64,000 nt of DNA from Candidatus Heimdallarchaeota archaeon (GCA_018238545.1 JABCTC010000013.1:1719-65718), one strand, 5' to 3'. Shown: positions 21,304-35,949, numbered from the stretch's first letter. The notes: a model not told the origin generated them from the letters alone. Translations and numbers: made by a program.

Positions 21304-24300
21304 CTATTTATTTCTTAACTTTGATATAATCATAGCAATCGACAAAGTGATGGTAATCACTGCTACACTAACCAGAGGATAGAATAAAGGTAATGAAGAG
21401 TAAGTAATTCTTTCATATGCACCAGATATGGGTATATTTATTGTAAAGAGGCTGGAGAAAGTCGACCATATAAAATAGTTTTGAGAATCTTCATTTATTG
21501 TTGATGGAGACAGTTTCATGGATAGTGGAATCTCTAGTGTTGTCGATGGATTTTCTTGCGTTTCTATAGATTGAAAATCTGTTGTAAGTATTTCATAAAG
21601 TGATAAGTAATTTACTATTAGTGGAGGTACAGTAAAATTATCTGGTAAGTCAGTGCCAGTAATAGTGATGACGATTTTGTCTCCGGGGTAAAGAGTCATC
21701 GTAGCATAAGTTACCTTTACAGTTCCAAATACTACTGATGTTTCAATTATTAGTTCTGATTCGACTTCGTTGTGAATATACTGCACATTAGCTTCAAATG
21801 AATCTAGTAAAGATTGATCAATAAATTGGAATAGTGAAATATTTGCAGGAGACATTCCTTTGTTCTCTATTTTATATTGCAGAAACAATGAACTATCTTC
21901 TTCAGTGACTTCAAACATTGATTCTACAGTTATTTCAGGTAGTGGAAAAGCTTGTTTTGCTTGATTCTCAAGCGAAGGTGGAGGCAATAAGATTCCAAAT
22001 GTTAATGTTGAACTAACGAGATTTCTTGCCTCTCCTCCATAAATCCAAGAGATTGTATTACCAGTCCATGGATTAATTATTTCAACTATACCTTGGTCTT
22101 TGTCTGACGTGAAGCTAATAAGCGCTATATAGGTATTGAGACCTATGTAACTGTTTGCGATTATTGAAAATTCATGTGATAATTCTTCACCAATAAGTAT
22201 CTCATCGATATCAAAGGATTTTACCTTCACGATACCTGTTGGTTGCCAGAGAAAATCAAGTTTTAAGTTTACAATATCCACGTGTATATCAGAGGCATCT
22301 AAAGAACCAAAATTAGTGATATTCAAATTAAAATTAATTTGCTCACCAACCCTATAGATTGATTCTTCTAGGGTAAGTAAACTTTCCAAAACAGCTTCAT
22401 CATCTCCAATCTGCAAATTTAATCCATTTGTTAGACCGTAATATTCTTGCCCATTTATATCCGAATAGCTGTATCTACTACCTAAGGAGATGAAAGAGCT
22501 TGTGACCTCATCAAAGGTACTAAGGAAGCGTCCAGCACTGTTAATTACAGCAAAAAGTGTTAGCATCAAATCCTTGTAATCACTTTCTACAGTTCGAAAT
22601 ACAGCATATTCACAAAAACCACTATATTCAGGATAAACAGAGAAAGCCCCGAATTTATCTGAAGATGTAGGGATATTGGAAATTTGCCAAGAGAAATCCA
22701 CAGTTTCATTAACCTCCAAACTTGGGATAACAAATTCAAGATAATCACCAAAAATTCCGGTTTTATTTGAAAAATCAGCTGATTCAAATTGGAATAAAGT
22801 CTTGTTTTTATAAAACTTAGAGAAAACAGTATCGTATGTATTGCTTATTGCGTTTGTAAGTTTAGTCTGAAGTGTTGATCTATAATTGGCAAGGTTTAAA
22901 AATATTATTTCAGAACCGACAGATTCTATAAATGGGAGAATTTCCTGTTCAACCTCATAGTATAAATCAGAAGATAAACCAGAGGAACAATAGATTGTAG
23001 CATATTCGTCGAGAATAATTTCCGTATCATTTCGCCATCCTTCAAACTGTGAGGTTATAGTATTTTGATACCAACCCCGAATATCAAGAATCGAGATATT
23101 GGCTGAATAAACACCATAATTAAAATATAGGTAAATAAAAGATGAAAAAGTTTCGTTTATTGTTAAATAATCTTTCATTACAGGTATCTCTGCACCATTA
23201 TAGATGAATGATGCTAACTCAGGAGGGATTGGCATTTTGATAGAAGTATCTAAGGCAACATCTGTACCAATGTTTGTAGCTCTGTAAGTCATGTTGAGCA
23301 CTCCTTCATCTTCAAGAATTTGATCTGAGTATGAGTTTGTAACAACAACTTGAGGATATGTAAAATCAGCCAATGAGGAGGGGTGATATGAGATTTCTGC
23401 GTTAAAATTAGGATAACGTGTGATATTGGAATACTTCAATAACCATTCAAATGAACCAGTAATACTTGCTCCAACATTATCAGGTACAGGATTAATAGAG
23501 GTAATATTGGCAATGAACGGGATCCTGAAAGAAGCTCTTGATATAAACGCTTCTGGGTTGGGAGAAATTATTTCTCCAAAAGTGTTTTCTAGATTGAAAG
23601 TGTAGATACCGTTAATCAAAGATATCTTATCTGCAAGTGAAACCATAGCTCCTCTAGTTATTTTGTTTACTGACCACAAATTCTTCTGGATAGAATACCC
23701 AAAAGCATAGATGTCAGGAGATTGATTGATAGCTTCTTCCATTAAAACTACCGAGTTACCATGTAGAATATCATCATATGGAGAGAAAATATCGCTAAAA
23801 AGAGACAATGCTATCTCAGGAGTGATTGGAGCTAACAAAGAAATCAGTGTTTCTGTATAAGAAATAGATTGTACTGAATATAAACTTAAATTTAAATTAT
23901 AATTTTGTTCGACTAGAGTTATAATATTATTTGAAATTGCTTCTAAACGAGATACTGTGGTAGTTCGTGTTTTTATTCGAACAACCAGACCATCAGGGAC
24001 TCGCCATAATGGATTAGACCAAACATTTGAGAATTGAGATTGGTTTGAAACAATAAAATCAATTTGAGTAACTGGTGACAAAGCTATAGATGTAAGGTCA
24101 AACGGTGTCTCAATTTGTCCTCCATTTAGCTCTAATGAGGCTATTATTGAATTATCTCTTCCGGCAATGAGATCCAGTTTTTCTTGGTAAAAGTCAAGTT
24201 CTTCTAAAACCATTGGCTGCATTAAAGAACCATTATTTCCTACAAAAGTGGAAGAAACAAGATTATTTGGAGACATAAGAATGGAAGAGAGGAAAATCAA

Positions 24301-24372
24301 GAGTACCAAAATTGTTTGAGGATAATTTGGGGCTATTCTATTCCTAAGACGGAGAAGTTTTTTGATACTCAT
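21304..24372 (-). CDS. giant (1022 aa) secreted surface protein with signal peptide and C-terminal TM anchor
   Basis: N-terminal hydrophobic signal. Ser/Thr/Asn-rich extracellular body. Tail LVSVAVITITLSIAMIISKLRNK. Confidence 0.6.
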   Translation of the reverse strand: MSIKKLLRLRNRIAPNYPQTILVLLIFLSSILMSPNNLVSSTFVGNNGSLMQPMVLEELDFYQEKLDLIAGRDNSIIASLELNGGQIETPFDLTSIALSPVTQIDFIVSNQSQFSNVWSNPLWRVPDGLVVRIKTRTTTVSRLEAISNNIITLVEQNYNLNLSLYSVQSISYTETLISLLAPITPEIALSLFSDIFSPYDDILHGNSVVLMEEAINQSPDIYAFGYSIQKNLWSVNKITRGAMVSLADKISLINGIYTFNLENTFGEIISPNPEAFISRASFRIPFIANITSINPVPDNVGASITGSFEWLLKYSNITRYPNFNAEISYHPSSLADFTYPQVVVTNSYSDQILEDEGVLNMTYRATNIGTDVALDTSIKMPIPPELASFIYNGAEIPVMKDYLTINETFSSFIYLYFNYGVYSANISILDIRGWYQNTITSQFEGWRNDTEIILDEYATIYCSSGLSSDLYYEVEQEILPFIESVGSEIIFLNLANYRSTLQTKLTNAISNTYDTVFSKFYKNKTLFQFESADFSNKTGIFGDYLEFVIPSLEVNETVDFSWQISNIPTSSDKFGAFSVYPEYSGFCEYAVFRTVESDYKDLMLTLFAVINSAGRFLSTFDEVTSSFISLGSRYSYSDINGQEYYGLTNGLNLQIGDDEAVLESLLTLEESIYRVGEQINFNLNITNFGSLDASDIHVDIVNLKLDFLWQPTGIVKVKSFDIDEILIGEELSHEFSIIANSYIGLNTYIALISFTSDKDQGIVEIINPWTGNTISWIYGGEARNLVSSTLTFGILLPPPSLENQAKQAFPLPEITVESMFEVTEEDSSLFLQYKIENKGMSPANISLFQFIDQSLLDSFEANVQYIHNEVESELIIETSVVFGTVKVTYATMTLYPGDKIVITITGTDLPDNFTVPPLIVNYLSLYEILTTDFQSIETQENPSTTLEIPLSMKLSPSTINEDSQNYFIWSTFSSLFTINIPISGAYERITYSSLPLFYPLVSVAVITITLSIAMIISKLRNK

Positions 24373-24469: not shown

Positions 24470-25312
24470 TCATATAGTGACCTCCAGAAGGTTCATAATC
24501 AAAAATGCTAACCCGTTTAGAATAAAAACCACAAATAGTGTGGCTAATCCAGCCTTCTCAACCCTTAATTCCTTAATAACAACAATTGACTCAGTCAAAA
24601 GTCCTACGAATATTAATTGTGTAAACATTAGCAACACGATCACCCAGATATCCATCTGTAAAGGTGAAATGGGATATTCAAAATCAAAAACAAGTGCTTC
24701 AAGTATACAAAATAAAACCAACGGTATTTGAGCAAATATAGCGCTTTGAAATAGGGCTAACTTCCCCGCTTTTCTTTTGTAAATAACCGACACAAATAGC
24801 TCAGTTAACAGATATGTAACGATTGTAGATACTAAGAAGAATATTGGAGCAAAGAAATCAGGAACAATGAAAGAAGGAAATAAGAAAATGGGAGCAAATG
24901 AAAGGAAGTATGTGGCAACCCCTAACCCAACAAAAAGCAAGATAGAGAATCCTAATGACCTAACAGGATCATTTTCTATAAAACGAAAGACGGGCCTTAA
25001 GAAAACCGAATGTAGAAATGACATTTTCCCATATGTGGGTAAACTAGGTGCAGAAATATCTAATTCATCCTCAATCAGTGCATATGATCTTCTTCCCTTC
25101 TCTGTTAACAGATATTTCTTAGTAGAATCTTGAGTTATAAGCTCTCCAAGAGTATCAAGGTGATGATAAAGTGTTCCAACTTTCATATGAAAACGTTCTT
25201 GAATTTCAGTAAAAGAAACAACCATTTTTTCACCAATAAAACAAAGTAAATCCCTTCGAATTTTATTCGAAAGTGCCTTCCAAATTTCAGGTGGTTGTTT
25301 CTTCGAATTCAT
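24470..25312 (-). CDS. membrane-anchored winged-helix (ArsR/PadR-like) transcriptional regulator
   Basis: N-terminal ~90 aa HTH-like (SFTEIQERFHMKVGTLYHHLDTL) followed by ~5 TM helices. Confidence 0.55.
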   Translation of the reverse strand: MNSKKQPPEIWKALSNKIRRDLLCFIGEKMVVSFTEIQERFHMKVGTLYHHLDTLGELITQDSTKKYLLTEKGRRSYALIEDELDISAPSLPTYGKMSFLHSVFLRPVFRFIENDPVRSLGFSILLFVGLGVATYFLSFAPIFLFPSFIVPDFFAPIFFLVSTIVTYLLTELFVSVIYKRKAGKLALFQSAIFAQIPLVLFCILEALVFDFEYPISPLQMDIWVIVLLMFTQLIFVGLLTESIVVIKELRVEKAGLATLFVVFILNGLAFLIMNLLEVTI

Positions 25313-25360: not shown

Positions 25361-26503
25361 TTAATGGGTCTTGAGTATGTTGTAAAGAGTGTCTCTCTGA
25401 GCAGGAATTCTATTGGCATCACGAATTAAATCAATAAATTCCTCTGCTGTTTTCTCTTCACCATGTGTTCCACCCGCACTTTTGGTAATACTCTCATAAA
25501 ACAATGTTCCACCCACATCATTAACCCCAGCATTAAGCGAGATTTGTGAGAATTTTGAGCCTAGTTTTACCCAAGAAGTCTGAATGTTTGAAAAAAGCTC
25601 GCCCAGATATAACCTTGCGGTACTAAAAAGAGCTAAATCATGCATTCCTGTACTACCGGGTCTCGCACCTAGATATTTATACAAAACGGTTTTGTTGTGT
25701 ATAAAAGGCAAAGGTACAAATTCTGTAAAACCTTTTGAAATTTCTTGCATATGTTTTAGTAAAACTAGATGTTCAGCTTCATTTTCCAGAGTTTCTACAT
25801 GTCCATACATCATCGTTGATGTAGATTTTAAACCCAAACTATGTCCAGTTAGTACGATGTTTACCCATTGATTTGTAGATATTTTTTCTGGGCAAATCAC
25901 TTGTCGGATTTCATCTACTAGAATTTCTGCGGCTGTTCCTGGAAAAGAATCTAGTCCATTCCTAAAGAGCTCCTTGAACACATCCTCCACTGTTTCACCA
26001 GAAATTCGTGACATATAAGCAATCTCAGAGGGAGAGAAAGCGTGTATATGGATATTAGGTGCGGTGGTTTTTACTAATTTTAAAAGGTCTAGATAAAATT
26101 CGTAATTTATTTCTGGATCTAGACCTCCTTGAATGCATAACTCAGTACAGCCTCTTGCTACAGCTTTTTCCGTTTCTAGTCGTATATCATCAAGAGAGAG
26201 TCTTATAGATTTGATGTTATTTTTGTTATTTGTATAGTTAAACGAACAAAATCTGCAGGAACCAATGCAATGATTTGAAAAATTAATGTTCTGATTAACT
26301 ACGTATGTGACTTTATCTCCAACCTGTTGATGTCTTAAATCATCAGCCAAAGCTGTTTGGACCCATAACTCCTTTCCGCGTTTTTTTAGTAGTGAAGTTA
26401 CTTCTTTTATTTCACGAGTATTTGATTTGCTAAAAGCAGTAAAATCAACTATTTCATCGATTTTTGGGGGAGATAATTTCTTCATTCCTATACTTATCCT
26501 CAA
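25361..26503 (-). CDS. cofH: FO synthase subunit 2 (radical-SAM, CofH)
   Basis: CxxxCxxC cluster motif CIGSCRFCSF. ~380 aa. 50-nt overlap with the upstream cofG-like gene. Operon with ArfC-type reductase. Confidence 0.7.
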   Translation of the reverse strand: MRISIGMKKLSPPKIDEIVDFTAFSKSNTREIKEVTSLLKKRGKELWVQTALADDLRHQQVGDKVTYVVNQNINFSNHCIGSCRFCSFNYTNNKNNIKSIRLSLDDIRLETEKAVARGCTELCIQGGLDPEINYEFYLDLLKLVKTTAPNIHIHAFSPSEIAYMSRISGETVEDVFKELFRNGLDSFPGTAAEILVDEIRQVICPEKISTNQWVNIVLTGHSLGLKSTSTMMYGHVETLENEAEHLVLLKHMQEISKGFTEFVPLPFIHNKTVLYKYLGARPGSTGMHDLALFSTARLYLGELFSNIQTSWVKLGSKFSQISLNAGVNDVGGTLFYESITKSAGGTHGEEKTAEEFIDLIRDANRIPAQRDTLYNILKTH

Positions 26504-27560
26504 TTATTTTGCGAATTTTTTTGTTTAAATACTTTTCATAAGGAGGGTACACGGGCAATCTTTGTTTCAAAAAGAACCCTTCAGATTCCAAGTTCTTCCC
26601 CAAATTACTCTCTTCCTGCCAAGTCATATTTGGATTGATATAATCAATGGTTGCAGATGAAATTCCTCCCAAATCATTTGCTCCATAGTCTAAAAGAGTA
26701 ATTATTCTATCTCTATTAAGATTAGGAGGTGCTTGAATATTAACATTAGAACCCATAATCATGCGCGAAAGGGCAATTGTTAACAGAACATCCTCTTCTT
26801 CAGGAGGGGGATAATCTTGCATAGGTGTTCCTTTTTGAGGGTTAAAATTCTGTATAATTATTTCTTGTATGTGTCGATATTTCTTATTGATATTTTGTAA
26901 ATACAACAGAGATTCTATTCGCTCTTCTTTTGTTTCCCCAATCCCTATAAGCAAACCTGAAGTAAATGGTATTCTTAGTCTTCCTGCATTTTCAATGACC
27001 TCAAGTCTCAATTTTGGATCTTTTGTGGGAGAAAGGTAGTGAGCTTCGTCTTTGTCTAATAAACGAGTACTTGAGGATTCTAACATTAAACCTAGACTAG
27101 CATTGGAATCTTTTAGATTTTTAAGCTCCTCAAAAGTAATTACTCCTGGATTAGAATGAGGCAATAAATTTTCATCTAGGGCAAGCTCGCAGAACATTTT
27201 CACATAGTCTACAGTTGAATTGCAGCTGTATCGTCGTAAAAATTCTCTAGCAGTCTCATATTTCTCCTCAGGTTTTTCCCCCAAAGTTAGAAGAATTTCA
27301 GAACATTTTTCCGATTTTGCTTTCTTTAATAAAGATTGAAATGAATCAGGAGTGATCCAACTTTTAACATCATCTGAAACGAAACTACAATAACCACAAC
27401 GATTTCTACATTGATGAGTGATTGGCACAAAAAAATTCCGTGAATAAGTTATAGTCTGACCATATAAATTTCTTGCTTTTTCATTTGCTAGACTCTGTAG
27501 TTCTTTAGGTTCGTTGTTTAACAAGGAAAGATAATAGTCGAAACTCATTTTGTGCATCAC
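26454..27560 (-). CDS. cofG: FO synthase subunit 1 (radical-SAM, CofG)
   Basis: CRNRCGYCSF radical-SAM motif, ~368 aa, directly upstream of the cofH-like gene. Confidence 0.7.
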   Translation of the reverse strand: MMHKMSFDYYLSLLNNEPKELQSLANEKARNLYGQTITYSRNFFVPITHQCRNRCGYCSFVSDDVKSWITPDSFQSLLKKAKSEKCSEILLTLGEKPEEKYETAREFLRRYSCNSTVDYVKMFCELALDENLLPHSNPGVITFEELKNLKDSNASLGLMLESSSTRLLDKDEAHYLSPTKDPKLRLEVIENAGRLRIPFTSGLLIGIGETKEERIESLLYLQNINKKYRHIQEIIIQNFNPQKGTPMQDYPPPEEEDVLLTIALSRMIMGSNVNIQAPPNLNRDRIITLLDYGANDLGGISSATIDYINPNMTWQEESNLGKNLESEGFFLKQRLPVYPPYEKYLNKKIRKIIEDKYRNEEIISPKNR

Positions 27561-27567
27561 TTGCTTA

Positions 27568-28257
27568 TTATTTATTATCTATGTTCTTAATTGGAGTAAG
27601 TGTCACCAAAATACCTTCATCTAATTTTGTAATCTCCGCTGCTTTAAACATCAAAGCACCTTGGACATCTTGAACTAATAAATCATCATACAAATTCTTA
27701 CCTCCCTTATTTCCAACAAATACAAACCTGTAAAAGATATGTAAAACATCAACCAGTTGGTTTTTTAGTAATTGTGTTATCATTGTTGAACCTCCCTCTA
27801 CTAATACTCGAGATACAAAATACTTCGTACGAAGTACTTTCAAAACTGTTTTCATATCCAAAAATTTTCTATCATCTTTTTCCTCAATAAGTTCGACTTT
27901 TACCCCCAAACGCTGTAGTTTACTTCTTTTTACTTCAGAGCTTTGGTGAGATGTAAAAATAATTGTTGGGATCATGTGTTGATCTTGTATAATTTTAGAA
28001 TCTAAATGAATTCGACACTTTGAATCCAAAACAACTCTAAGTGGATGAGGAGATTTAGGTTCCGTATATCGAACAGTTAGAAGCGGATTATCACTAATAA
28101 CTGTATTAATACCAATAAGAATTGCATCAACTGAATTTCTCAATTTATGTACTCTAATCCAATCTTCTTTTGTTGACAAAGAAAGAGCACCTTCTTCTGA
28201 GCCTATTATCCCATCAAGAGAGCTTGCAACATTTATAATTACTTCTGGTTTTTCCAT
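27568..28257 (-). CDS. RibD-C/ArfC-type 2,5-diamino-6-ribosylamino-pyrimidinone 5'-phosphate reductase
   Basis: DHFR-like reductase signature VIINVASSLDGIIGSEEG...ILIGINTVISDNPLLTVR. 229 aa. Confidence 0.65.
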   Translation of the reverse strand: MEKPEVIINVASSLDGIIGSEEGALSLSTKEDWIRVHKLRNSVDAILIGINTVISDNPLLTVRYTEPKSPHPLRVVLDSKCRIHLDSKIIQDQHMIPTIIFTSHQSSEVKRSKLQRLGVKVELIEEKDDRKFLDMKTVLKVLRTKYFVSRVLVEGGSTMITQLLKNQLVDVLHIFYRFVFVGNKGGKNLYDDLLVQDVQGALMFKAAEITKLDEGILVTLTPIKNIDNK

Positions 28258-29417
28258 TTTACTAACCTACCTTTGTACATTTGAAAATCTATATCAATGG
28301 GTGTAGCTCGCATGGTTAATGCCGCATAAACATCTTTTGAGAAACTGAGATTGGGGTTATTTAAGTCAAATCCTAGAAAATCACCGCTATATCCCACAGA
28401 TAATTGCCCAATTTTTCGTTGGATTATTAAGCCAGGGTTAACAGTTAAAGCTTTGAGTATGTCTTTTGGGGAGATAAGCTGTTTAGTGGAGCGAGCATTG
28501 TAAAGCGAAAAGGCCATTAATCTGAAAGGGTCTGGGTTACAGCAAAAAACATTATCTGACCCTAATCCTAGAAGTATCCCTTCGTCAATAATGGCCTTTA
28601 AGGGAGGAAAATCTAGACCATTATAGAGATTGGAAAGAGGGCAACACACAACACTAATATTGTTTTTTTTCAAAGATTGGAGATCGTTCTCATCTGCATA
28701 AGTCGCATGGATAACGAAGTCCAAATCTAATTGATCAATTGCTACTTCGATATCCCTTTTACCAAAAGTTGCTAAAGATCGAGAAATAACTTCTAAAGAT
28801 TCTGAGACATGAATCGCACACAAATGACCAACTTTATTTTCTTTCAAAATATTTGCTTCCTCGCAAAGCACGTCATCTAAAGAAAAGACATCTGGAAACC
28901 CAGTACCATCACTTTGTTGACTAATTTCTACTAATGGGTCTTTATTATCTGGACGTCCTAAAATCAAACCACGAATAGGAAAATCCACAAGAGATTCTTT
29001 CAACAAATTGATTCCCTGTAAACCTCCTTCTCTAAAATCTATGAAGCTTGTAAAACCATTGTTGACTTGCATTTCCAATGAGTTTCTTATACTGGAAATT
29101 TTTTCTTCAGTTGTACTGGAACTTAGTTTCTTGTATTTTACTCCAGTAGGACCCACAGCCTCGTCAAGAGATAATCCATAAGTGTGATCCTTAAGATATG
29201 CATCACCAACGTGAACATGAGCATTTACAAATCCTGGAATTAGCAAGTAAGATGAGGGTAAAACGTATTCAGCTGGTTTTTCTTCTTCTGAAATATCTAT
29301 TATGGTACCATCACTATCAACTTGGAACCGTACATTTTCAACAAACTCCAAATCTGGACCAACCAAAGCATTGGCACGAACGGCTACCATGGCTCTCTTA
29401 TGAAAATTTGTGAGCAA
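28239..29417 (-). CDS. amidohydrolase-superfamily deaminase (cytosine/guanine-deaminase / chlorohydrolase-like)
   Basis: Metal-binding GFVNAHVHVGDAY near the N-terminus, later HATYADENDL. Stop overlaps the reductase start by 19 nt (translational coupling). Confidence 0.65.
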   Translation of the reverse strand: MLTNFHKRAMVAVRANALVGPDLEFVENVRFQVDSDGTIIDISEEEKPAEYVLPSSYLLIPGFVNAHVHVGDAYLKDHTYGLSLDEAVGPTGVKYKKLSSSTTEEKISSIRNSLEMQVNNGFTSFIDFREGGLQGINLLKESLVDFPIRGLILGRPDNKDPLVEISQQSDGTGFPDVFSLDDVLCEEANILKENKVGHLCAIHVSESLEVISRSLATFGKRDIEVAIDQLDLDFVIHATYADENDLQSLKKNNISVVCCPLSNLYNGLDFPPLKAIIDEGILLGLGSDNVFCCNPDPFRLMAFSLYNARSTKQLISPKDILKALTVNPGLIIQRKIGQLSVGYSGDFLGFDLNNPNLSFSKDVYAALTMRATPIDIDFQMYKGRLVKWKNQK

Positions 29418-29529
29418 GTATTAAGATTTTACGGAAAAAGCGCATTCATGTTTAAAGGACAGATTGCAAGCAAAAAAAAAGAATGTTTACACTTTAATCT
29501 TTCAATTAAAAAACATTAGAATCAGTATA

Positions 29530-29537
29530 TTTATAAT
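29530..29537 (+). promoter_or_regulatory. candidate TATA box (tttataat) ~35-40 nt upstream of the EF-2-like start codon
   Basis: AT-rich divergent intergenic region. Position fits an archaeal TATA about 26 nt upstream of a short-leader TSS. Confidence 0.25.
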
Positions 29538-29571
29538 TCAACCTTAAAATTTAGCGTCAAAGCAGATTTAT

Positions 29572-31797
29572 GTGATAAAGATGGTTCGAGTAAAGAATCC
29601 AGATGAAATCCGAGAGATGATTAAAAGTCATCCTATGAACTTGCGTAGAGTATTCTCTATTGCAGCTCATATAGATCATGGAAAAACAACAACTAGTGAT
29701 TATCTCCTGCGTAAAGCTGGTCTGATGTCAGATGCAGATGCAGGAAAGAAAGTAATGATGGATAGTGATGATGAAGAACAAGAAAGAGGAATCACTATTT
29801 TTACAAGTGTAGTAATGTTATCCTACGAATTCGAAGGTGAAACATATCTATGTGAAATTAATGACACTCCAGGACATATTTCCTTTACTGGAGAAGTAAG
29901 TAGAGCACTTCGAGGAAGTGATGGTGTTGTTATATTAGTAGATGCGCTTGAAGGGGTTATGACCCAGACTGAAACCAACATAAGACTAAGTTTAGCTGAA
30001 AAATGCAAACCAGTTCTTTTCATTAATAAGGTAGACAGACTTATTTCTGAACTAAGGCTTGCTCCCAAAGATGTTTTTGCAAAAATTGATACAATTGTTG
30101 AAGGTGTTAAAAAACTAATCAAAGATAACGCTCCTAAAGGTTCAGTTAAAGACTGGATGGTATCTTTCCAAGAAGGATCAGTTACAATAGGTAGTGCTAA
30201 AGATGGCTGGGCTTTTAACATGTCAACTCTTCAAAGATTAAAGATTACACCCCAAGATGTTTTTGCAAAATATGATGAAGATGACAAAGATTGGTTAAGA
30301 GAGAATTTACCACTTGAAGAACCAATATTAGAGATGGTTATCAAGCACTTACCTGACCCTGTTGAAGGACAAAAAGTTAAGATCCCAGCAATTTGGAGCG
30401 GAGATTTAGAAAGTCCTGAAGGTCAAGCTCTTTTGAATTGTGATAGAGATGGACCATTAATGGGCATGATCACAAAGATATTTATTGAACCAAAGTCTAA
30501 AAGACCTACTCTTATTGGAAGAGTATACTCAGGTACGTTAAAGAAAACAGATTCTCTATTTCTAGTTGGAAAGAAAACCAAAGCAACCATTAAACGACTA
30601 GGAGTTATGGAAATTACTGACATTCTTGATGTAGATGAAGTTCCAGCAGGGAATCTTTTCGCTATTTACGGCTTTATTACTCCAGCTGGAGAGACTTTTG
30701 TGAGAGAAGGAGATGAAAAGAGGTTAACGCCTTTTGAAGAAATTTCTTATGCTTCAGATCCAGTTGTTAGCAGAACAATTAAACCAAAAGATCCCCAAGA
30801 TATTGCTAAATTGGGTGAAGTGGTATCAAAATGGATAATGGCTGACCCAACTGCTACTTTCAGACATGACCAAGAATCTAAGACATATGTTTTATCAGGT
30901 ATTGATCCTTTGCAAATAGAAATTCTAGTTACAAGAATTCAAGAGCAAGTACAGATTGATGTAAGTGATCCAATTATTGTATACAGAGAAACTCCATCTA
31001 AAATAGGTATTACTGTTCATGCCAAATCTCCAAATGGACATAACAGATTAATGGTACATGTTGAGAAATTAAACGCCGAATCACAGGCATTGTTCAAATC
31101 TGGTAAGATCCATAATGATATGGATCGTAGAGAAAGAGCAAATCAACTTCAAGAAGAAGCAGGATGGATTGCTAAGCAAGCTAGAAGAATCTGGTATATT
31201 AAAGATACAAATGTACTCGTTGATGCAACCTCAGGTGTTCAAAGATTAGATAATATTAAAGCATATGTTATCCAAGTTTTCAATGATTTCTGTGAAGGAG
31301 CCACATTAGCAAAAGAACCATTAATGGGTTCAAAGTGGATGATCACAGATGCTACTGTTCATGTAGATCCAGCTCATACAGGGTTTACAGAAATATTCCA
31401 AATGTGTTTAGCAGCATATCATACATCCTTCTTGACCAGTGACCCACACTTAGTTGAACCAATGCAAATTATAGACATTAAGGTTCCTAGCAGTTATGTA
31501 GGAAATATGTCAAAAGTAATTACCCAAAATAGAGGAGTAATTCAAGATATGACCCAAGAAGGAGAGAATACCAACATAAGAGGAAGGATACCAACAGCCG
31601 AAACTATTGATCTTGCAGATGAGATACGAGGTAATAGTTCAGGTAGAGCATTCTTTGGTTATGTCTTCGATGGATTTGATCCCGTTCCTACTAATTTGGA
31701 AAAAGAAGTGATAGAAGCTATTCGTACTCGAAAAGGCCTTTCTCCACAAGTTCCTGAAGTATCCAATTGGGAACGGTTCATGTATAAGAGAACATAA
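29572..31797 (+). CDS. elongation factor 2 family GTPase with divergent diphthamide loop (candidate EF-2 paralog)
   Basis: G1 AHIDHGKTT, RGITI, DTPGHISF, NKVDRL, five-domain length (741 aa). In domain IV the canonical HxDAIHRGGGQ is HVDPAHTGFTE: the His is kept but RGGGQ is lost. Confidence 0.85.
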   Translation: MIKMVRVKNPDEIREMIKSHPMNLRRVFSIAAHIDHGKTTTSDYLLRKAGLMSDADAGKKVMMDSDDEEQERGITIFTSVVMLSYEFEGETYLCEINDTPGHISFTGEVSRALRGSDGVVILVDALEGVMTQTETNIRLSLAEKCKPVLFINKVDRLISELRLAPKDVFAKIDTIVEGVKKLIKDNAPKGSVKDWMVSFQEGSVTIGSAKDGWAFNMSTLQRLKITPQDVFAKYDEDDKDWLRENLPLEEPILEMVIKHLPDPVEGQKVKIPAIWSGDLESPEGQALLNCDRDGPLMGMITKIFIEPKSKRPTLIGRVYSGTLKKTDSLFLVGKKTKATIKRLGVMEITDILDVDEVPAGNLFAIYGFITPAGETFVREGDEKRLTPFEEISYASDPVVSRTIKPKDPQDIAKLGEVVSKWIMADPTATFRHDQESKTYVLSGIDPLQIEILVTRIQEQVQIDVSDPIIVYRETPSKIGITVHAKSPNGHNRLMVHVEKLNAESQALFKSGKIHNDMDRRERANQLQEEAGWIAKQARRIWYIKDTNVLVDATSGVQRLDNIKAYVIQVFNDFCEGATLAKEPLMGSKWMITDATVHVDPAHTGFTEIFQMCLAAYHTSFLTSDPHLVEPMQIIDIKVPSSYVGNMSKVITQNRGVIQDMTQEGENTNIRGRIPTAETIDLADEIRGNSSGRAFFGYVFDGFDPVPTNLEKEVIEAIRTRKGLSPQVPEVSNWERFMYKRT

Positions 31798-31888: not shown

Positions 31889-33412
31889 CTAATCGCCTGA
31901 GTCTTCATCAAACTCTGCAGATAACTGTTCATAAAACAGGTCTTCTTCCGAAACTGGAGCAACATCTTCTTCAGTTATTATTCTTGATCTGTCGTCCTCC
32001 AAATATTCCATATCTTCTAGAATTGGTTCCAGTTCTTCTTCTACTCTTGCAGAGAATTTCTCTTGTATAAAACCAAGAAGAGAGGTAAACAATAGGATAA
32101 ATATTACCAGTGGAATTAAGAGAAGAACTACACCTTCTGGTTCTAACATCTCAAGCGAGTTATAAATGGAAGGAGGATATCGTAAGAAGAATAATAAGAT
32201 GTCTGGATTTAAGATAGCGTATAGTCCCCCAAGCATTATTCCCACTCGGAATATAACTGATATTCCAACATACATGAGAGTTTTGAAAGGAGTTATAGCT
32301 ATTGATGCACCTACCAGCTTATCATCTACTTTTGGATCACTATGAATCAAACCATCATGATACCTTTGCAATCTAGCGGTCAGTTTGTCTTTTTGACCAC
32401 CAGGACGAGCAAACAGAGAATCTGAAGCTTTTTCCATGAAATAAGTTAATCCGGCTAAACCAAATTTTCTCCTGATAGAACTACTCGCACCCGTAATTGA
32501 GCTACCAGATTTTTTATCTCCACTGTCATCTGTTTCTGCTCCTTCTTCAGCTTCTCCTACCACAGGCATAGCTCGAGAGCTAGTAATCCCTAAACGGAAT
32601 TCTTTCAATCTGTCCAAAGCTCTTAAAACTCTTTCTTGTCTACTCTGAGCAGGGTTAAGAATCTTCGTCATATATGATATCTGTAAGGCTATCTCAAGGA
32701 ACAGATATGAGGCAAGCGCAATTAATACTACTTCGTTCGTGATAAGTTCTCCGAAGTTACGTGTGGGGGAAAATGAGAACCCTGGTTTGAAGAGTAACTT
32801 AACACTTCCGTAGTAGACCACTAACTGGATACAAACAAACGCAGCAGTTGCTGAGCGCATGTCTGCTCTTAATAGAAATGCAGCAACTGATACTGAAAAT
32901 AGAATTACGAATAATATTAAAATAGATGCTCTATTTGCAACTTTTAAGGTGCCTAAATTGGTGAAGTAATAAGCAAATGGAGAGAACAGTGCGTTTACAG
33001 CAGAATCACCTACACCATATAGTCCTGATGTAGTCATCTCACCCGGAGGGGAAACATTATTGAATAAATCCACTGTAATAAATGCTCTCGCACCTAAAAG
33101 AATAGCATTTGCATCTGTCCCTGAGATAAGTAGAAATATCATCAAAGGAAGAGAGAAAAGTACAAGAGCTATATTCTCAAAGAAAATGAATAGCAGAGTT
33201 AAGCTATCTAATAAATGACCATCTGGAAATTTTTCTGTGTTTGTAAAATCAATTAAATCTGCAAATTGAAGCGCAACCCAAACAACAGCTCCTATAGCGA
33301 ACAATCGTCCAATTAAATTAGTAATTGTAGTTTGAATCTTTGCTCCTCGGATTCTACGTTGAACTCCTCGGATTCCAAGTTCGATAGATTGTGTGTCTCC
33401 TAACGATTCCAT
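31889..33412 (-). CDS. polytopic membrane protein with acidic C-terminal tail (last gene of operon A; possibly SpoIIM/DUF95-like)
   Basis: ~8 TM helices. 7-bp gap to the upstream DUF58 gene. Confidence 0.5.
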   Translation of the reverse strand: MESLGDTQSIELGIRGVQRRIRGAKIQTTITNLIGRLFAIGAVVWVALQFADLIDFTNTEKFPDGHLLDSLTLLFIFFENIALVLFSLPLMIFLLISGTDANAILLGARAFITVDLFNNVSPPGEMTTSGLYGVGDSAVNALFSPFAYYFTNLGTLKVANRASILILFVILFSVSVAAFLLRADMRSATAAFVCIQLVVYYGSVKLLFKPGFSFSPTRNFGELITNEVVLIALASYLFLEIALQISYMTKILNPAQSRQERVLRALDRLKEFRLGITSSRAMPVVGEAEEGAETDDSGDKKSGSSITGASSSIRRKFGLAGLTYFMEKASDSLFARPGGQKDKLTARLQRYHDGLIHSDPKVDDKLVGASIAITPFKTLMYVGISVIFRVGIMLGGLYAILNPDILLFFLRYPPSIYNSLEMLEPEGVVLLLIPLVIFILLFTSLLGFIQEKFSARVEEELEPILEDMEYLEDDRSRIITEEDVAPVSEEDLFYEQLSAEFDEDSGD

Positions 33413-33419
33413 TTTTTTA

Positions 33420-34874
33420 TCACCCTTGACGTTGCATGCGGTTAAACTGTGCCATTATTGTAGGCAAGAAGTCATCTGGACCTACTGAGATAGATACCGC
33501 ATCATATCTTCTTAGAAGCTTGAAAAGATTCTGTCGTTCGCCTAATTGTTTCTCAACCATAGCATGTCCTACCATTTGTTCTACTGGTGAAAGTTGATGT
33601 GAAACAATTTCAAACCATGGTCCAAAGGGAGAGATAACAGTGATATTATGCTTCCTTGCTCTAGCTCTTCTGATAGCTTTAATAATTCTATCAGGATGAG
33701 ATTCTAAATCTGAAATTATTACGATGTAAGATGCACGTTTCACTCTTTGCAATAAATAGTCGATTGCAACTTCCAAGTCTGCCTCTCCTTGAGGTTTAGC
33801 GTGAGCAAGCGACTCTAGAAACTGAAATAGACGAGATCTCACTGAAGTGATATCAACCCAATTCCTTATTTTATCATCATAAATACATAGACCTACAAGA
33901 TCCTTTTTCTCGAATGCAAGATGTATAAGAAGAACAGCACTTCGGATAGCGTACTCTAGCTTAGTATTGCGAGGTAAACCTGCACCCATGCTTACTGAAG
34001 AATCTACCAATACAATCACACGTATATTCTCTTCAGATTCATATTCTCTAACCATCATCTTTCCTGACCGCGAGAAAGCTTTCCAATCTATGAATTTGAA
34101 AGGATCGCCCACCTGGTATTTTCGTATACCCCAGAAATCTGAACCCATACCTTTGATTTTCGTTCTATGAAAACCAAACAGCACGCCTAGTTGTCTCTTC
34201 TTACCAATCATTTCCAATTTCTTGATATCTTCATAACTTGGATAAACTAAGATCTCTGTTTTTGTAATTATCTCTCCTTCTGTTGCGTAAAATCCCATTC
34301 GATCTCTTATAATCACTTTAGTAGGACCTATCTCAAAAACCCCTCTTATTGGGATTCTAACGACATATCCATAAGTTATTGTTTGTCTTGGATTCAGCTG
34401 TGTAACGATAAAGTTTTCACCTAGAATTAAATCGAAAACTTCTGGTATTGCATCATAAATCTCAACGGTTGGCAACTGATTTACAGATTTGTTCCTAGCA
34501 GTTACTTCTATGTATACATAATCTCCTGCGAAAGCCTTGGGTTTTGAAACTTTTCTTGTAATTTCAATTGACTTGGGGTTAGCTCCTAGTCGGTAAAATG
34601 GCAATCCCAAAAGAACTGAAAAGATTAACATTACTCCACCGAGTATGAAAAACCAGATTAGAGTGCCTTCTGTGTCAAGATAGAAATGTAAGAAATCCAT
34701 TATCCCTATACCTTGATTATCAGCAGGAACTCCAGTCGTTGTGGAGTTTACTTGGGGGCTTACACCAAATGAATCTAACATGGTATTTAATGATAAGTAA
34801 CCCATTAATGCAAAGCCTATGCTAATCATTATGATTCCACCAAAGACTAAAAAACCGCCTCGACGTGTGAACAC
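33420..34874 (-). CDS. DUF58 (vWA-like) protein, MoxR partner, with N-terminal TM helices
   Basis: DUF58 signature KGMGSDFWGIRKYQVGDPFKFIDWKAFSRSGKMMVREYESEENIRVIVLVDSSVSM. Confidence 0.7.
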   Translation of the reverse strand: MFTRRGGFLVFGGIIMISIGFALMGYLSLNTMLDSFGVSPQVNSTTTGVPADNQGIGIMDFLHFYLDTEGTLIWFFILGGVMLIFSVLLGLPFYRLGANPKSIEITRKVSKPKAFAGDYVYIEVTARNKSVNQLPTVEIYDAIPEVFDLILGENFIVTQLNPRQTITYGYVVRIPIRGVFEIGPTKVIIRDRMGFYATEGEIITKTEILVYPSYEDIKKLEMIGKKRQLGVLFGFHRTKIKGMGSDFWGIRKYQVGDPFKFIDWKAFSRSGKMMVREYESEENIRVIVLVDSSVSMGAGLPRNTKLEYAIRSAVLLIHLAFEKKDLVGLCIYDDKIRNWVDITSVRSRLFQFLESLAHAKPQGEADLEVAIDYLLQRVKRASYIVIISDLESHPDRIIKAIRRARARKHNITVISPFGPWFEIVSHQLSPVEQMVGHAMVEKQLGERQNLFKLLRRYDAVSISVGPDDFLPTIMAQFNRMQRQG

Positions 34875-34902
34875 TATATTACACCTAATTTGCTCGTTTC
34901 AT

Positions 34903-35916
34903 TTATACTGGAACAGGTAAGTTTCGAAGTATTTCACTTACAACGATAGTTCCAGTGGTTCCTTCTAATTCTGCTTCTGGTTTCATCATTAATCTATGAG
35001 CTGTTGCTACTCTGGCAACTCTTTTCACATCATCGGGGATAACGTAATCTCTGCCTCTCATAGCTGCTACAGATTTACAGGCATTTAGAAGAGCTATACT
35101 ACATCTTGGACTACCGCCCAATGTTAGTCTAGGATCTGTTCGAGTTGCCATGACCATATCCCGGATATAATTCAGAATATCTTCATGAACAAATATCTGT
35201 GTCGCAATGCATTCTTTCATTTTAGTTATAGTCATAGGTGTTGTCACTCTGCGAACTGACTGTCGAATCTGTTTATGCTTTAATAGTATGATGTCCAACT
35301 CTTCTTCACGGGAAGGCAAGCCTACTAAAAGCTTAAACATGAACCTATCGACTTGAGCCTCGGGTAGAGGATATGTTCCTTCTTGTTCGATTGGGTTTTG
35401 GGTAGCTATAACCAAAAATGGGTCATCTAGTTTGAAAGTGGTTCCTTCTACTGTAACCTGTTTTTCTGCCATTGCTTCAAGCAATGCTGCTTGAGTTTTT
35501 GGTGGGCTTCTGTTGATTTCATCAGCCAACAAGATATTTGTGAATATTGGCCCTTTTCTCATCTTGAATGTTCCAGCTTTTGGATCATAAATGGTAGTTC
35601 CTACCACATCTGATGGCAGAAGATCTGGAGTAAATTGAACTCTTTTGAATTCACATCCAAGTGTTAGAGCAAAGCTGTTAGCCATTACAGTTTTTGCAAT
35701 ACCTGGAACGCCCTCTAGTAGACAATGTCCTCCACCGAGTAGAGCTATAAACATGTCTTCTAGAACATCGACTTTCCCAATAATTACTCGTCGCAATTCG
35801 CTATATATTTCTTCCCAGACTCTTTTAATATCCTTTGGGGTAACAACTGCTTCTGTTGTTGTCTTTGCTTTAGCTTTTCCTTTTGCTTCACTATTTTCTT
35901 CACTCATTTTTTTCAC
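34903..35916 (-). CDS. MoxR-family AAA+ ATPase
   Basis: LLEGVPGIAKT Walker A, ILLADEINRSPPKTQAALLEAMAEKQVTV (MoxR signature), DRFMFK. Confidence 0.85.
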   Translation of the reverse strand: MKKMSEENSEAKGKAKAKTTTEAVVTPKDIKRVWEEIYSELRRVIIGKVDVLEDMFIALLGGGHCLLEGVPGIAKTVMANSFALTLGCEFKRVQFTPDLLPSDVVGTTIYDPKAGTFKMRKGPIFTNILLADEINRSPPKTQAALLEAMAEKQVTVEGTTFKLDDPFLVIATQNPIEQEGTYPLPEAQVDRFMFKLLVGLPSREEELDIILLKHKQIRQSVRRVTTPMTITKMKECIATQIFVHEDILNYIRDMVMATRTDPRLTLGGSPRCSIALLNACKSVAAMRGRDYVIPDDVKRVARVATAHRLMMKPEAELEGTTGTIVVSEILRNLPVPV

Positions 35917-35949
35917 TTTTCCTTATATTATTTTTTTTTCCTTGTAATC

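What the first reader, a model, noticed from the sequence alone, without database searches (positions are those of the whole stretch)
25361..29417. FO-synthase operon led by a translationally coupled amidohydrolase: candidate for the archaeal riboflavin/FO-pathway pyrimidine deaminase
Four co-directional genes with overlapping junctions: amidohydrolase-superfamily deaminase (HVHVGDAY metal site), then ArfC/RibD-type reductase, then cofG, then cofH. The reductase and CofG/CofH bracket the step where 2,5-diamino-6-ribitylamino-pyrimidinone-5'-P must be deaminated to the 5-amino-uracil substrate of FO synthase. To my knowledge, the enzyme for that deamination in archaea has not been firmly assigned. 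A cytosine/guanine-deaminase-like amidohydrolase whose stop overlaps the reductase start by 19 nt is a strong guilt-by-association candidate. The alternative is an MTA/SAH or nucleobase deaminase recruited for 5'-deoxyadenosine salvage of the radical-SAM by-products of CofG/CofH, which would also be a neat functional coupling.
Basis: inference. Interest (0 to 1): 0.55.

Follow-up and report, generated by a model that had tools for sequence, protein, structure and literature searches.

The report
Predicted archaeal riboflavin/FO pyrimidine deaminase operon
A Heimdall-group archaeon carries a four-gene operon whose first gene is very probably the still unproven archaeal enzyme that removes an amino group from the pyrimidine precursor of vitamin B2 and deazaflavin, but the same protein family was proposed for this job in 2010.

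Summary
Four tightly packed minus-strand genes encode an amidohydrolase (AH), a RibD_C/ArfC-type reductase, CofG and CofH. AH and ArfC overlap by 19 nt.

AH is followed directly by a single-domain ArfC in about 75 of 81 loci, spanning Asgard and Nitrososphaeria lineages and other Thermoproteota MAGs. In Nitrosopumilus the order is ribE-ribB-ribH-arfA-AH-arfC. In Jord- and Freyarchaeia it is ribB-ribC-ribH-arfA-AH-arfC-arfB. In Heimdall, Loki and Hermod lineages the AH-arfC pair sits in front of cofG-cofH. AH+RibD_C and Creatininase(ArfB-like)+AH fusion proteins also exist.

AH has the complete mononuclear deaminase signature (HxH, HxxE, H, D). It scores far below the cut-offs for DadD, MtaD and guanine deaminase, so the 5'-deoxyadenosine-salvage alternative is not supported.

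The idea is not new. AH is a divergent member of the MJ0699/PRK07213 family, which SEED names "Pyrimidine deaminase archaeal predicted" (Osterman 2010; "PyrD" in Rodionova 2017; HVO_2483 in Pfeiffer 2021). I found no biochemical proof in literature up to 2026. The new points here are the Asgard cofGH linkage and the fusions.

The parts
28239..29390 (-). AH: amidohydrolase-superfamily (cog0402-type) deaminase-like protein of 383 aa. It is a divergent member of the MJ0699/PRK07213 family and the predicted 2,5-diamino-6-ribitylamino-4(3H)-pyrimidinone 5'-phosphate 2-deaminase. The ORF listing extends it to a TTG at 29417.
   Evidence: Pfam Amidohydro_1. Best NCBIfam model NF005552 at 242 bits, next best 72 bits. 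32% identity and E 1e-45 to MJ0699. All 28 checked signature residues are shared with the family, and 27 of the 28 with MJ0699 itself. AF2 pLDDT 95.9. Foldseek TM about 0.85 to cog0402 deaminases.
27568..28257 (-). ArfC/Rib7-type pyrimidine nucleotide reductase of 229 aa. It has a RibD_C domain only and no CDA deaminase domain. Its start overlaps the AH stop by 19 nt.
   Evidence: Pfam RibD_C E 4.7e-39. TIGR00227 152.2 bits (cut-off 150.15) and TIGR01508 152.9 bits (cut-off 186.45). Junction sequence.
26454..27560 (-). CofG, the FO synthase radical-SAM subunit. The GTG start lies 7 nt after the arfC stop; alternative ATG starts are at 27557 and 27548.
   Evidence: NF004884 409 bits (cut-off 209) and TIGR03550 392 bits. 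Junction sequence.
25361..26503 (-). CofH, the FO synthase radical-SAM subunit. The likely ATG start is at 26485. It overlaps the cofG stop by 32-50 nt.
   Evidence: TIGR03551 447 bits (cut-off 374) and Pfam CofH_C. Junction sequence.
29391..29580 (.). Divergent intergenic region of 190 nt between AH and an EF-2-family gene. It contains a TATA-like box, ATTATAAATATACTGATT (29520-29537), conserved among Heimdall loci. It is the presumed promoter region of the operon and/or of the EF-2 gene.
   Evidence: Sequence. Alignment of five Heimdall-type loci. Promoter function is inferred, not tested.

Best explanation
The four genes form one operon that converts the riboflavin/F420 branch-point nucleotide into the deazaflavin chromophore FO.

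1. ArfC reduces 2,5-diamino-6-ribosylamino-4(3H)-pyrimidinone 5'-phosphate to the ribityl form.
2. AH, a mononuclear-metal TIM-barrel amidohydrolase, hydrolytically removes the 2-amino group of that isocytosine-type ring. Its HxH, H194, H228 and D279 residues would hold the metal-bound water, and E197 of the HxxE motif would shuttle the proton. The product is 5-amino-6-ribitylamino-uracil 5'-phosphate.
3. An unidentified phosphatase removes the phosphate.
4. CofH and CofG condense the product with tyrosine to make FO.

AH is thus the non-homologous archaeal counterpart of the cytidine-deaminase-fold domain of bacterial RibD and fungal Rib2. The overlapping AH/ArfC reading frames (translational coupling) play the role of the RibD domain fusion.

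Shown here: gene identities, synteny, fusions, active-site signature, fold, and family membership with MJ0699. Inferred: the substrate, the order of reduction and deamination (taken from M. jannaschii biochemistry), the metal, and the idea that conserved basic residues (K67, K85, R120, R146, R361) bind the 5'-phosphate.
For: (1) Synteny. AH is followed at once by a co-directional single-domain ArfC (215-242 aa) in 72 of 81 loci by ORF calling, and in 3 more by tblastn. The frames overlap in 67 of the 72.

(2) Three independent operon architectures share only the AH-arfC core.
- Nitrosopumilus: ribE-ribB-ribH-arfA-AH-arfC.
- Jordarchaeia/Freyarchaeia: ribB-ribC-ribH-arfA-AH-arfC-arfB. This holds every known dedicated archaeal enzyme from GTP to riboflavin (kinase and FAD synthetase steps excluded) plus AH.
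- Heimdall/Loki/Hermod: AH-arfC-cofG-cofH.
arfA lies directly upstream of AH in 56 of 80 loci. Where arfC is not adjacent, other rib genes are: L038 has AH-ribB followed by a DMRL_synthase-family gene (ribC or ribH), and L007 has ribB-ribC-ribH-arfA-AH.

(3) Fusions. P0303 is Amidohydro_1 + RibD_C and is followed by cofG-cofH. P0300, P0477 and P0478 are Creatininase (ArfB-like) + Amidohydro_1, seen on at least 17 contigs.

(4) Chemistry. HxH, H, HxxE, H and D are invariant in 67 family members. The AF2 model (pLDDT 95.9) superposes on cog0402 deaminases. These include guanine, 8-oxoguanine and isocytosine deaminases, which perform the same 2-amino-4-oxopyrimidine to 2,4-dioxo conversion.

(5) The known deaminase domain is absent. 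Every adjacent reductase lacks the CDA domain, and orthologues of the RibD deaminase domain are reported missing in Archaea.

(6) Independent prior prediction. MJ0699 and HVO_2483 are the published candidates. MJ0699 scores 589 bits on NF005552, the model that is also the window protein's best hit. Methanocaldococcus lauensis orthologues are named 'Pyrimidine deaminase archaeal predicted'.
Against: - No enzyme assay or genetic test of any family member was found.
- The window protein is below NCBIfam's cut-off for NF005552 (242 against 294 bits). It is only 30-35% identical to the Loki, Thaumarchaeota and methanogen members.
- In Methanococcales the gene is not linked to rib genes.
- Marine Actinomycetota relatives keep almost the whole signature but sit in an unrelated, catabolic-looking neighbourhood. 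Signature and HMM score alone therefore do not fix the substrate.
- The 80 loci are the best scorers of 594 and are dominated by closely related Nitrososphaeria, so the counts overstate the number of independent observations.
- The AH+RibD_C fusion is a single MAG contig.
Confidence: 0.8

Rival explanations
1. AH is a DadD/MtaD-like deaminase. It would detoxify or salvage 5'-deoxyadenosine (or MTA/SAH), the by-product of the two radical-SAM enzymes CofG and CofH encoded downstream.
For: AH belongs to the same cog0402 branch of the amidohydrolase superfamily as MtaD and DadD. MTA/adenosine deaminases are among its best structural neighbours (4gbd, 4dyk, 4f0r, TM0936). In the window it shares an operon with two radical-SAM genes.
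Against: - The DadD model NF005557 gives 57.5 bits against a cut-off of 522, and the MtaD model NF012037 gives 43.5 against 779. Both cover only the C-terminal catalytic half.
- The conserved partner is ArfC, not CofG/H: about 75 of 81 loci have arfC next to AH, and only 19 have cofGH.
- 56 loci place AH between arfA and arfC in riboflavin operons with no radical-SAM gene.
- M. jannaschii has a family member (MJ0699) besides its characterised DadD, which is MJ1541 (from my own knowledge, not checked here).
- The fusions are to RibD_C and Creatininase domains.
Confidence: 0.03
2. AH is a formamide hydrolase. It would replace ArfB by deformylating 2-amino-5-formylamino-6-ribosylamino-pyrimidinone 5'-phosphate in lineages that show no creatininase-type ArfB in the operon.
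For: The Thaumarchaeota and Heimdall operons contain no ArfB gene. Amidohydrolases can hydrolyse amides. ArfB is itself unassigned in some archaea, for example haloarchaea.
Against: - AH and a creatininase-type ArfB coexist in the same operon in Jord- and Freyarchaeia.
- They are even fused in one polypeptide, which argues for different, consecutive-pathway functions.
- M. jannaschii has a family member (MJ0699) in addition to the ArfB characterised in that organism (cited).
- The HxxE motif with a single-metal HxH/H/H/D site is the deaminase signature of cog0402.
Confidence: 0.05
3. AH is a generic nucleobase or pterin deaminase (guanine, isocytosine, 8-oxoguanine or pterin type). Its linkage to arfC would then be inherited gene order without functional meaning. 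Alternatively, AH is the missing phosphatase for 5-amino-6-ribitylamino-uracil 5'-phosphate.
For: Structural neighbours include guanine, 8-oxoguanine and isocytosine deaminases. Bacterial relatives with the same signature lie in non-riboflavin contexts. The phosphatase step is also unassigned in archaea.
Against: - The guanine deaminase model gives 50 bits against a cut-off of 375.
- The N-terminal, substrate-binding half is family-specific, and other deaminase models align mostly to residues from about 170 to 390.
- The linkage persists across phylum-level lineages and through operon rearrangements and fusions, which inherited order alone does not explain.
- No phosphomonoesterase is known with this HxxE single-metal deaminase site (established knowledge of the amidohydrolase superfamily).
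Confidence: 0.07

Closest known systems
MJ0699 / HVO_2483 family (NCBIfam NF005552 PRK07213 'chlorohydrolase'; SEED role 'Pyrimidine deaminase archaeal predicted'; 'PyrD' of Rodionova et al. 2017)
   Same: NF005552 is the best NCBIfam model for both proteins. The window protein is 32% identical to MJ0699 over 360 aa, E 1e-45. MJ0699 keeps 27 of the 28 signature residues checked. Both have the predicted role inferred from clustering with riboflavin genes.
   Different: The window protein belongs to a divergent Heimdall-type subclade that scores below the NF005552 cut-off (242 against 294 bits). It sits in an AH-arfC-cofG-cofH operon rather than a riboflavin operon or an isolated position. I did not find the cofGH linkage or the AH+RibD_C and ArfB+AH fusions mentioned in the papers read. 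No member of the family has been characterised biochemically.
cog0402 amidohydrolase-superfamily deaminases with solved structures (guanine deaminase; 8-oxoguanine/isocytosine deaminase Vcz 7ww2/8is4; MTA/SAH/adenosine deaminases 4gbd, 4f0r, TM0936; AtzA 4v1x; 3lnp)
   Same: Predicted (beta/alpha)8 barrel plus beta-sandwich fold, TMq 0.79-0.88. HxH, H, HxxE, H and D metal and catalytic residues are present. The C-terminal catalytic half is homologous, up to 148 bits profile-to-sequence. Guanine and isocytosine deaminases carry out the same ring chemistry as proposed here.
   Different: Only 13-19% identity. None of their family models is reached. The N-terminal half, with conserved K67, K85, FxDFRE(120-121) and GR146, is specific to this family. 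The proposed substrate is a phosphorylated ribitylamino-pyrimidine, not a free base or nucleoside.
RibD N-terminal domain / fungal Rib2 (cytidine-deaminase-fold pyrimidine deaminase, EC 3.5.4.26 and the Rib2 reaction)
   Same: Same proposed pathway step and the same partnership with a RibD_C-type reductase. In bacteria the two are fused in RibD. Here they are translationally coupled, and in P0303 they are apparently fused.
   Different: The fold is unrelated: a zinc CDA fold with HxE/PCxxC motifs against a TIM-barrel amidohydrolase. This is a functional analogue, not a homologue. Orthologues of the RibD deaminase domain are reported absent from Archaea.

Membership tests
MJ0699/PRK07213 family (predicted archaeal pyrimidine deaminase) | Full-length match to NCBIfam NF005552 above its curated cut-off of 294 bits | tested here: not met
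   The window protein scores 242.3 bits over residues 11-380. It is still the best model by 170 bits. Other members: MJ0699 589, M. igneus 583, M. fervidus 450, Nitrosotalea 322.5, Loki P0059 272.5. The cut-off therefore excludes the Asgard members in general.
MJ0699/PRK07213 family (predicted archaeal pyrimidine deaminase) | Direct full-length homology to MJ0699 and a shared family signature | tested here: met
   BLASTP gives 32% identity over 360 aa, E 1e-45. Of the 28 invariant or near-invariant positions (P52 N56 H58 H60 D63 K67 G83 K85 G112 D118 R120 E121 G126 G145 R146 G162 G164 H194 E197 H228 C250 P251 G277 D279 N280 T316 N318 R361), MJ0699 is identical at 27; P251 is V in MJ0699.
MJ0699/PRK07213 family (predicted archaeal pyrimidine deaminase) | Chromosomal clustering with riboflavin-pathway genes, which was the basis of the published prediction | tested here: met
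   arfC lies directly downstream in the window and in about 75 of 81 loci. arfA, ribB and ribH lie upstream in 51-56 loci.
MJ0699/PRK07213 family (predicted archaeal pyrimidine deaminase) | Deamination of 2,5-diamino-6-ribitylamino-4(3H)-pyrimidinone 5'-phosphate | not testable with these tools
   No assay for any member was found in the literature.
Amidohydrolase superfamily, mononuclear cog0402-type deaminases | HxH after strand 1, His after strand 5 with an HxxE motif, His after strand 6 and Asp after strand 8, on a (beta/alpha)8 barrel | tested here: met
   H58/H60, H194/E197, H228 and D279 are invariant in 67 sequences. In the AF2 model they sit at or just after the C-terminal ends of strands E54-59, E190-195, E225-228 and E274-276. 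Foldseek probability 1.00 and TMq up to 0.88.
DadD / MtaD (5'-deoxyadenosine, MTA/SAH deaminases) | Score above the NCBIfam equivalog cut-offs (NF005557: 522; NF012037: 779) | tested here: not met
   57.5 and 43.5 bits, covering the C-terminal half only.
Guanine deaminase | Score above the TIGR02967 cut-off (375.4) | tested here: not met
   50.2 bits, residues 198-358 only.
FO synthase CofG/CofH | Scores above the equivalog cut-offs, distinguishing them from MqnC/MqnE | tested here: met
   CofG: NF004884 409 bits (cut-off 209). CofH: TIGR03551 447 bits (cut-off 374), whereas the MqnC model gives 319 bits, below its cut-off of 428.
ArfC / Rib7 (EC 1.1.1.302) reductase | RibD_C domain without a CDA domain, and an archaeal-type equivalog score | tested here: inconclusive
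   RibD_C E 4.7e-39, and 229 aa means a single domain. TIGR00227 is passed (152.2 against 150.15), but the archaeal equivalog TIGR01508 gives 152.9, below its cut-off of 186.45. Preference for the diamino versus the deaminated substrate cannot be read from sequence here.

The most novel reading that the evidence does not exclude
The MJ0699-family TIM-barrel amidohydrolase really is the long-missing archaeal diaminopyrimidine-nucleotide deaminase, a non-homologous replacement of the cytidine-deaminase-fold RibD/Rib2 enzyme. In Asgard archaea it forms, with ArfC, a two-step module wired directly to FO synthase. In one Promethearchaeota MAG the module is even a single AH+RibD_C polypeptide, which would re-invent the bacterial RibD deaminase-reductase architecture from an unrelated fold.
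Probability: 0.75. Interest if true: 0.5.

Novelty: new member of a known kind. Interest (0 to 1): 0.38.

Why it matters
The deamination step is one of the last unassigned reactions of archaeal riboflavin and F420 biosynthesis. It has been open since the pathway order was established in 2002.

Its product, 5-amino-6-ribitylaminouracil, has three roles. It is the branch point to flavins, the substrate of FO synthase, and the precursor of the MAIT-cell antigen 5-OP-RU, which a 2026 preprint links to gut archaea.

Confirming the family would complete pathway annotation for most archaea, including the Asgard relatives of eukaryotes. It would also add a clear case of non-homologous enzyme displacement.

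This window does not open the question for the first time. It adds independent support through the cofGH-linked operon and the domain fusions, and it shows that the NCBIfam cut-off misses the Asgard members.

Tried and rejected
- Profile search of the 5.8-billion-protein set with alignment A1. It returned only Asgard and Thaumarchaeota members and did not reach M. jannaschii. MJ0699 was reached indirectly: representative search, then M. igneus P0202, then its homologues, then cluster members.
- The supplements of Rodionova 2017 are not held, so their PyrD locus tags could not be read directly.
- The sigma-70 promoter and terminator scan is not applicable to an archaeon and was ignored.
- Model coordinates are not exposed. 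I could not measure whether the conserved Lys and Arg residues line the active-site mouth, so that remains an inference from their positions at strand ends.
- Rib or arf genes elsewhere in the window: tblastn found none at E 1e-3.
- High HMM score as a proxy for function was rejected, because the Actinomycetota relatives score 294 bits in an unrelated context.
- The DadD/MtaD, ArfB-analogue, generic base deaminase and phosphatase readings were considered and set aside, for the reasons given under the rival explanations.

Full report
**1. What is in the sequence.**

Between 25361 and 29417, all on the minus strand, lie four consecutive ORFs.

| Gene | Coordinates | Evidence |
|---|---|---|
| AH | 29417 (TTG) or 29390 (ATG) to 28239 | Pfam Amidohydro_1, E 9e-24 |
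| Reductase (ArfC-type) | 28257 to 27568 | 229 aa, RibD_C only, E 4.7e-39; TIGR00227 152.2 bits (cut-off 150.15); archaeal equivalog TIGR01508 152.9 bits (cut-off 186.45) |
| CofG | 27560 to 26454 | NF004884 409 bits (cut-off 209) |
| CofH | 26503/26485 to 25361 | TIGR03551 447 bits (cut-off 374); MqnC and MqnE models stay below their cut-offs |

The junctions were read directly.
- The AH stop and the arfC ATG overlap by 19 nt.
- arfC and cofG are separated by 7 nt.
- cofG and cofH overlap by 32 or 50 nt, depending on the start codon.

Close homologues of AH are almost all 383 aa, and an ATG sits at 29390. AH is therefore 383 aa, not 392.

GC content is about 35% throughout. The best protein matches, 80-92% identical, come from Candidatus Heimdallarchaeaceae MAGs.

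**2. What the amidohydrolase is at the sequence and structure level.**

Its best NCBIfam model by far is NF005552 (PRK07213, 'chlorohydrolase'): 242 bits over the full length, with the next model at 72 bits.

Models of characterised deaminases reach only 43-57 bits, against cut-offs of 375-779, and align only to the C-terminal half. These are DadD (NF005557), MtaD (NF012037), guanine deaminase (TIGR02967) and 8-oxoguanine deaminase.

No solved structure is close.
- The single sequence gives at best E 1.8e-12, to AtzA.
- A 67-sequence profile gives at best 148 bits, to 3lnp, then AtzA, MTA/adenosine deaminases, TM0936, the 8-oxoguanine/isocytosine deaminase and guanine deaminases. Most of these matches cover positions from about 170 to 390.

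An AlphaFold2 model built on that alignment is confident (pLDDT 95.9, pTM 0.94). It superposes on the same cog0402 deaminases with TMq 0.79-0.88 at 13-19% identity.

In 67 family members the positions H58, H60, D63, H194, E197, H228, C250, P251, D279, N280, T316 and R361 are invariant. K67, K85, R120, E121 and R146 are at least 97% conserved.
- H58/H60, H194, H228 and D279 sit at or just after the C-terminal ends of barrel strands 1, 5, 6 and 8 of the model.
- E197 completes the HxxE motif.
- Together this is the mononuclear-metal deaminase site of this branch of the superfamily.
- The conserved basic residues sit after strands 1-3, in the family-specific N-terminal half. I infer, but could not test, that they bind the 5'-phosphate.

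**3. Comparative genomics.**

A scan of one genome per GTDB species with the family profile gave 594 confirmed relatives. The best 80 loci were fetched.

tblastn with the window's ArfC, CofG and CofH, plus ORF-order analysis, gave these results.
- A co-directional single-domain ArfC (215-242 aa) is the very next gene in 72 of 81 loci, counting the window. The frames overlap in 67 of those 72.
- In three more loci (L006, L018, L021) tblastn finds ArfC directly downstream, although my greedy ORF picker chose a shadow ORF.
- L060 has one inserted zinc-finger gene between AH and arfC.
- cofG-cofH follow in 19 loci, all Asgard-type (Heimdall, Loki/Promethearchaeota, Hermod, or unclassified MAGs with the same operon).

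Pfam annotation of the other neighbours, followed by tblastn with them, revealed two further architectures.
- Nitrosopumilus/Nitrososphaera: ribE (Lum_binding)-ribB-ribH-arfA (GCH_III)-AH-arfC.
- Jordarchaeia/Freyarchaeia (L005, L006, L008): ribB-ribC-like-ribH-arfA-AH-arfC-arfB (Creatininase family). Related loci L007 and L018 have the same upstream genes but no arfB hit.

Across the 80 loci, arfA is immediately upstream of AH in 56, and ribB and ribH are present in 51-52.

Where arfC is not adjacent, other riboflavin genes are. L038 has AH-ribB followed by a DMRL_synthase-family gene (ribC or ribH). L007 has ribB-ribC-ribH-arfA-AH. Only L029 (a 2.8-kb contig) and L047 (Altiarchaeales) show no pathway neighbour, and L061 ends at the gene.

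The Jord/Frey operon contains every known dedicated archaeal enzyme from GTP to riboflavin, leaving aside the kinase and FAD synthetase steps, plus AH. The only unassigned steps of that pathway are the deaminase and a phosphatase.

The AH-arfC pair is attached either to the riboflavin genes or to FO synthase. That is what one expects of enzymes making 5-amino-6-ribitylamino-uracil, the intermediate shared by both branches (one search gives the CofG/CofH substrate).

**4. Fusion proteins.**

Some of the best 150 representatives of the family are longer than usual, so I scanned them against Pfam.

- **P0303** (636 aa) is Amidohydro_1 (56-382), then a linker of about 35 residues rich in Gly, Pro and Arg, then RibD_C (415-625). 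It comes from a Promethearchaeota MAG and is followed by cofG and cofH. This is the window's operon with the first two genes joined. It is a single contig, so it needs read-level confirmation.
- **P0300, P0477 and P0478** (504-580 aa) are Creatininase (ArfB-like) + Amidohydro_1. They were seen on at least 17 contigs from several sources.

AH is thus fused to the enzymes of the two preceding pathway steps.

**5. Identity with the published candidate.**

Rodionova et al. 2017 state that orthologues of the RibD deaminase domain are apparently missing in Archaea. They add that a candidate archaeal-specific pyrimidine deaminase ('PyrD') was proposed by Osterman, Overbeek and Rodionov (2010) from chromosomal clustering and co-occurrence, and that it 'remains to be tested'.

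Pfeiffer and Dyall-Smith 2021 name the proteins as HVO_2483 and MJ0699 (Q58110), and say the gap-filling proposals 'require experimental confirmation'.

I linked the window protein to MJ0699 in these steps.
- The family profile finds Methanotorris igneus WP_013798840 at 358 bits.
- The homologues of that protein include a Methanocaldococcus cluster.
- The members of that cluster include AAB98692/Q58110, 'Uncharacterized protein MJ0699'. A sister cluster holds M. lauensis proteins literally named 'Pyrimidine deaminase archaeal predicted'.
- MJ0699 scores 589 bits on NF005552.
- It aligns to the window protein at 32% identity over 360 residues, E 1e-45.
- It keeps 27 of the 28 signature positions.

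The window protein is therefore a divergent Heimdall-type member of that family. NCBI's cut-off of 294 bits excludes it, and also the Loki member (272.5 bits).

**6. State of knowledge.**

Eight literature searches found no biochemical or genetic test of any family member. A 2026 review of riboflavin biosynthesis says only that some archaea and fungi use separate polypeptides for the two steps. F420 biosynthesis genes in Heimdall and Loki archaea are already documented.

**7. Mechanism proposed.**

1. ArfC reduces the ribosyl side chain of 2,5-diamino-6-ribosylamino-4(3H)-pyrimidinone 5'-phosphate. The order, reduction before deamination, is taken from the M. jannaschii work cited. It was not tested here.
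2. AH's metal-activated water attacks C2 of the isocytosine-like ring, with E197 shuttling protons. Ammonia leaves, giving 5-amino-6-ribitylamino-uracil 5'-phosphate.
3. An unknown phosphatase acts.
4. CofH and CofG add the tyrosine-derived ring to give FO.

The near-universal overlap of the AH and arfC reading frames suggests coupled translation and perhaps a complex. This would mirror the covalent deaminase-reductase fusion in bacterial RibD.

I put 0.8 on AH being this deaminase.

**8. Rivals.**

- **5'-deoxyadenosine/MTA deaminase (0.03).** Model scores contradict it. So does the fact that the conserved partner is arfC and the rib genes rather than radical-SAM genes. M. jannaschii also has a family member (MJ0699) alongside its characterised DadD, which to my knowledge is MJ1541; that locus tag was not checked here.
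- **ArfB analogue (0.05).** AH and ArfB coexist in one operon and in one polypeptide, which contradicts it.
- **Generic base or pterin deaminase with meaningless linkage, or the phosphatase (0.07 together).** This fits poorly with linkage that persists across rearranged operons and with the deaminase-type active site.

Caveats.
- Marine Actinomycetota relatives (P0238 cluster) keep nearly the whole signature but lie among CoA-transferase, amidohydrolase, nitrilase-superfamily (CN_hydrolase) and luciferase-like genes.
- The Methanococcales gene is unlinked to rib genes.
- Many of the 80 loci are close relatives of one another.

**9. Verdict.**

The secondary interpretation is not.

The finding rediscovers a published but still untested prediction. 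The added value is threefold:
- the Asgard AH-arfC-cofG-cofH operon;
- the fusions;
- the demonstration that annotation thresholds miss these members.

I rate it a new member of a known (predicted) kind, of moderate interest.

Noticed in passing
L009, L010, L011, L013, L016, L017, L026, L028, L035, L039, L040, L042, L044, L060, L069 (about 8.9-9.9 kb in the 21-kb loci): In 15 Loki/Hermod-type loci a GCHY-1 family gene (PF02649, FolE2/MptA-type GTP cyclohydrolase) lies directly upstream of AH-arfC-cofG-cofH. It is divergent in 13 loci and co-directional in L009 and L039. No arfA is nearby. It could be unrelated pterin metabolism, or the GTP-opening enzyme that feeds this operon.
   Followed up: partly
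L087 6001-7911 (P0303); L085 6001-7629 and L086 313-1941 (P0300): Domain fusions of the family. One is Amidohydro_1 + RibD_C (636 aa, one Promethearchaeota MAG, followed by cofG-cofH). The other is Creatininase (ArfB-like) + Amidohydro_1 (504-580 aa, at least 17 contigs from marine metagenomes, organism unknown; its neighbours mostly have no Pfam hit, apart from a second amidohydrolase and an EamA transporter).
   Followed up: partly
L081 4083-5348, L082 4746-6011, L083 622-1887: Marine Actinomycetota relatives (P0238 cluster, 34 members, 421 aa) keep almost the whole family signature (K85R, G164S). They sit next to a CoA-transferase, a second amidohydrolase, a nitrilase-superfamily (CN_hydrolase) enzyme and luciferase-like oxidoreductases. 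No riboflavin genes are nearby.
   Followed up: partly
window 29520-29537 (within intergenic 29391-29580): A TATA-like box, ATTATAAATATA(A/C)TGATT, is conserved in four of five Heimdall-type loci. It lies in the divergent region between the EF-2-family gene and AH, 44-61 nt upstream of the EF-2 ATG (29581) and 130-147 nt upstream of the AH ATG.
   Followed up: partly
window 24470-25312 (-): A 280-aa protein with an N-terminal winged-helix domain (weak DUF7347 hit) and a multi-pass membrane C-terminus lies 48 nt downstream of cofH. Similar-sized ORFs (287 and 285 aa) follow cofH in L001 and L002; their homology was not tested. It may be a membrane-bound regulator and possibly a fifth operon gene.
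   Followed up: no
window 29572-31797 (+): An EF-2/EF-G-family GTPase (741 aa from the GTG start; the likely ATG start is at 29581) is divergently transcribed from the operon. A similar-sized ORF (741-746 aa) holds the same position in L001 and L002; its homology was not tested. I did not determine whether it is the canonical aEF-2 or an Asgard EF-2 paralogue.
   Followed up: no
window 31889-37758 (-), 16797-17714 (-), 18321-20867 (-), 21304-24372 (-): Other neighbours in the window. There is a MoxR-type AAA ATPase + DUF58/VWA + DUF4350 + membrane-protein cluster, a Ras-family small GTPase with an N-terminal extension of about 120 aa, and a DEAD-box helicase with a MrfA-type zinc-binding (MZB) domain. 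A 1022-aa protein has no Pfam hit, and an ORF of similar size (1024 aa) holds the same position in L001.
   Followed up: no
L060 11503-12585; L044 12903-14535: The operon has been interrupted in two Promethearchaeota MAGs. In L060 a DUF4379 zinc-finger gene is inserted between AH and arfC. In L044 two opposite-strand genes are inserted between cofG and cofH.
   Followed up: no
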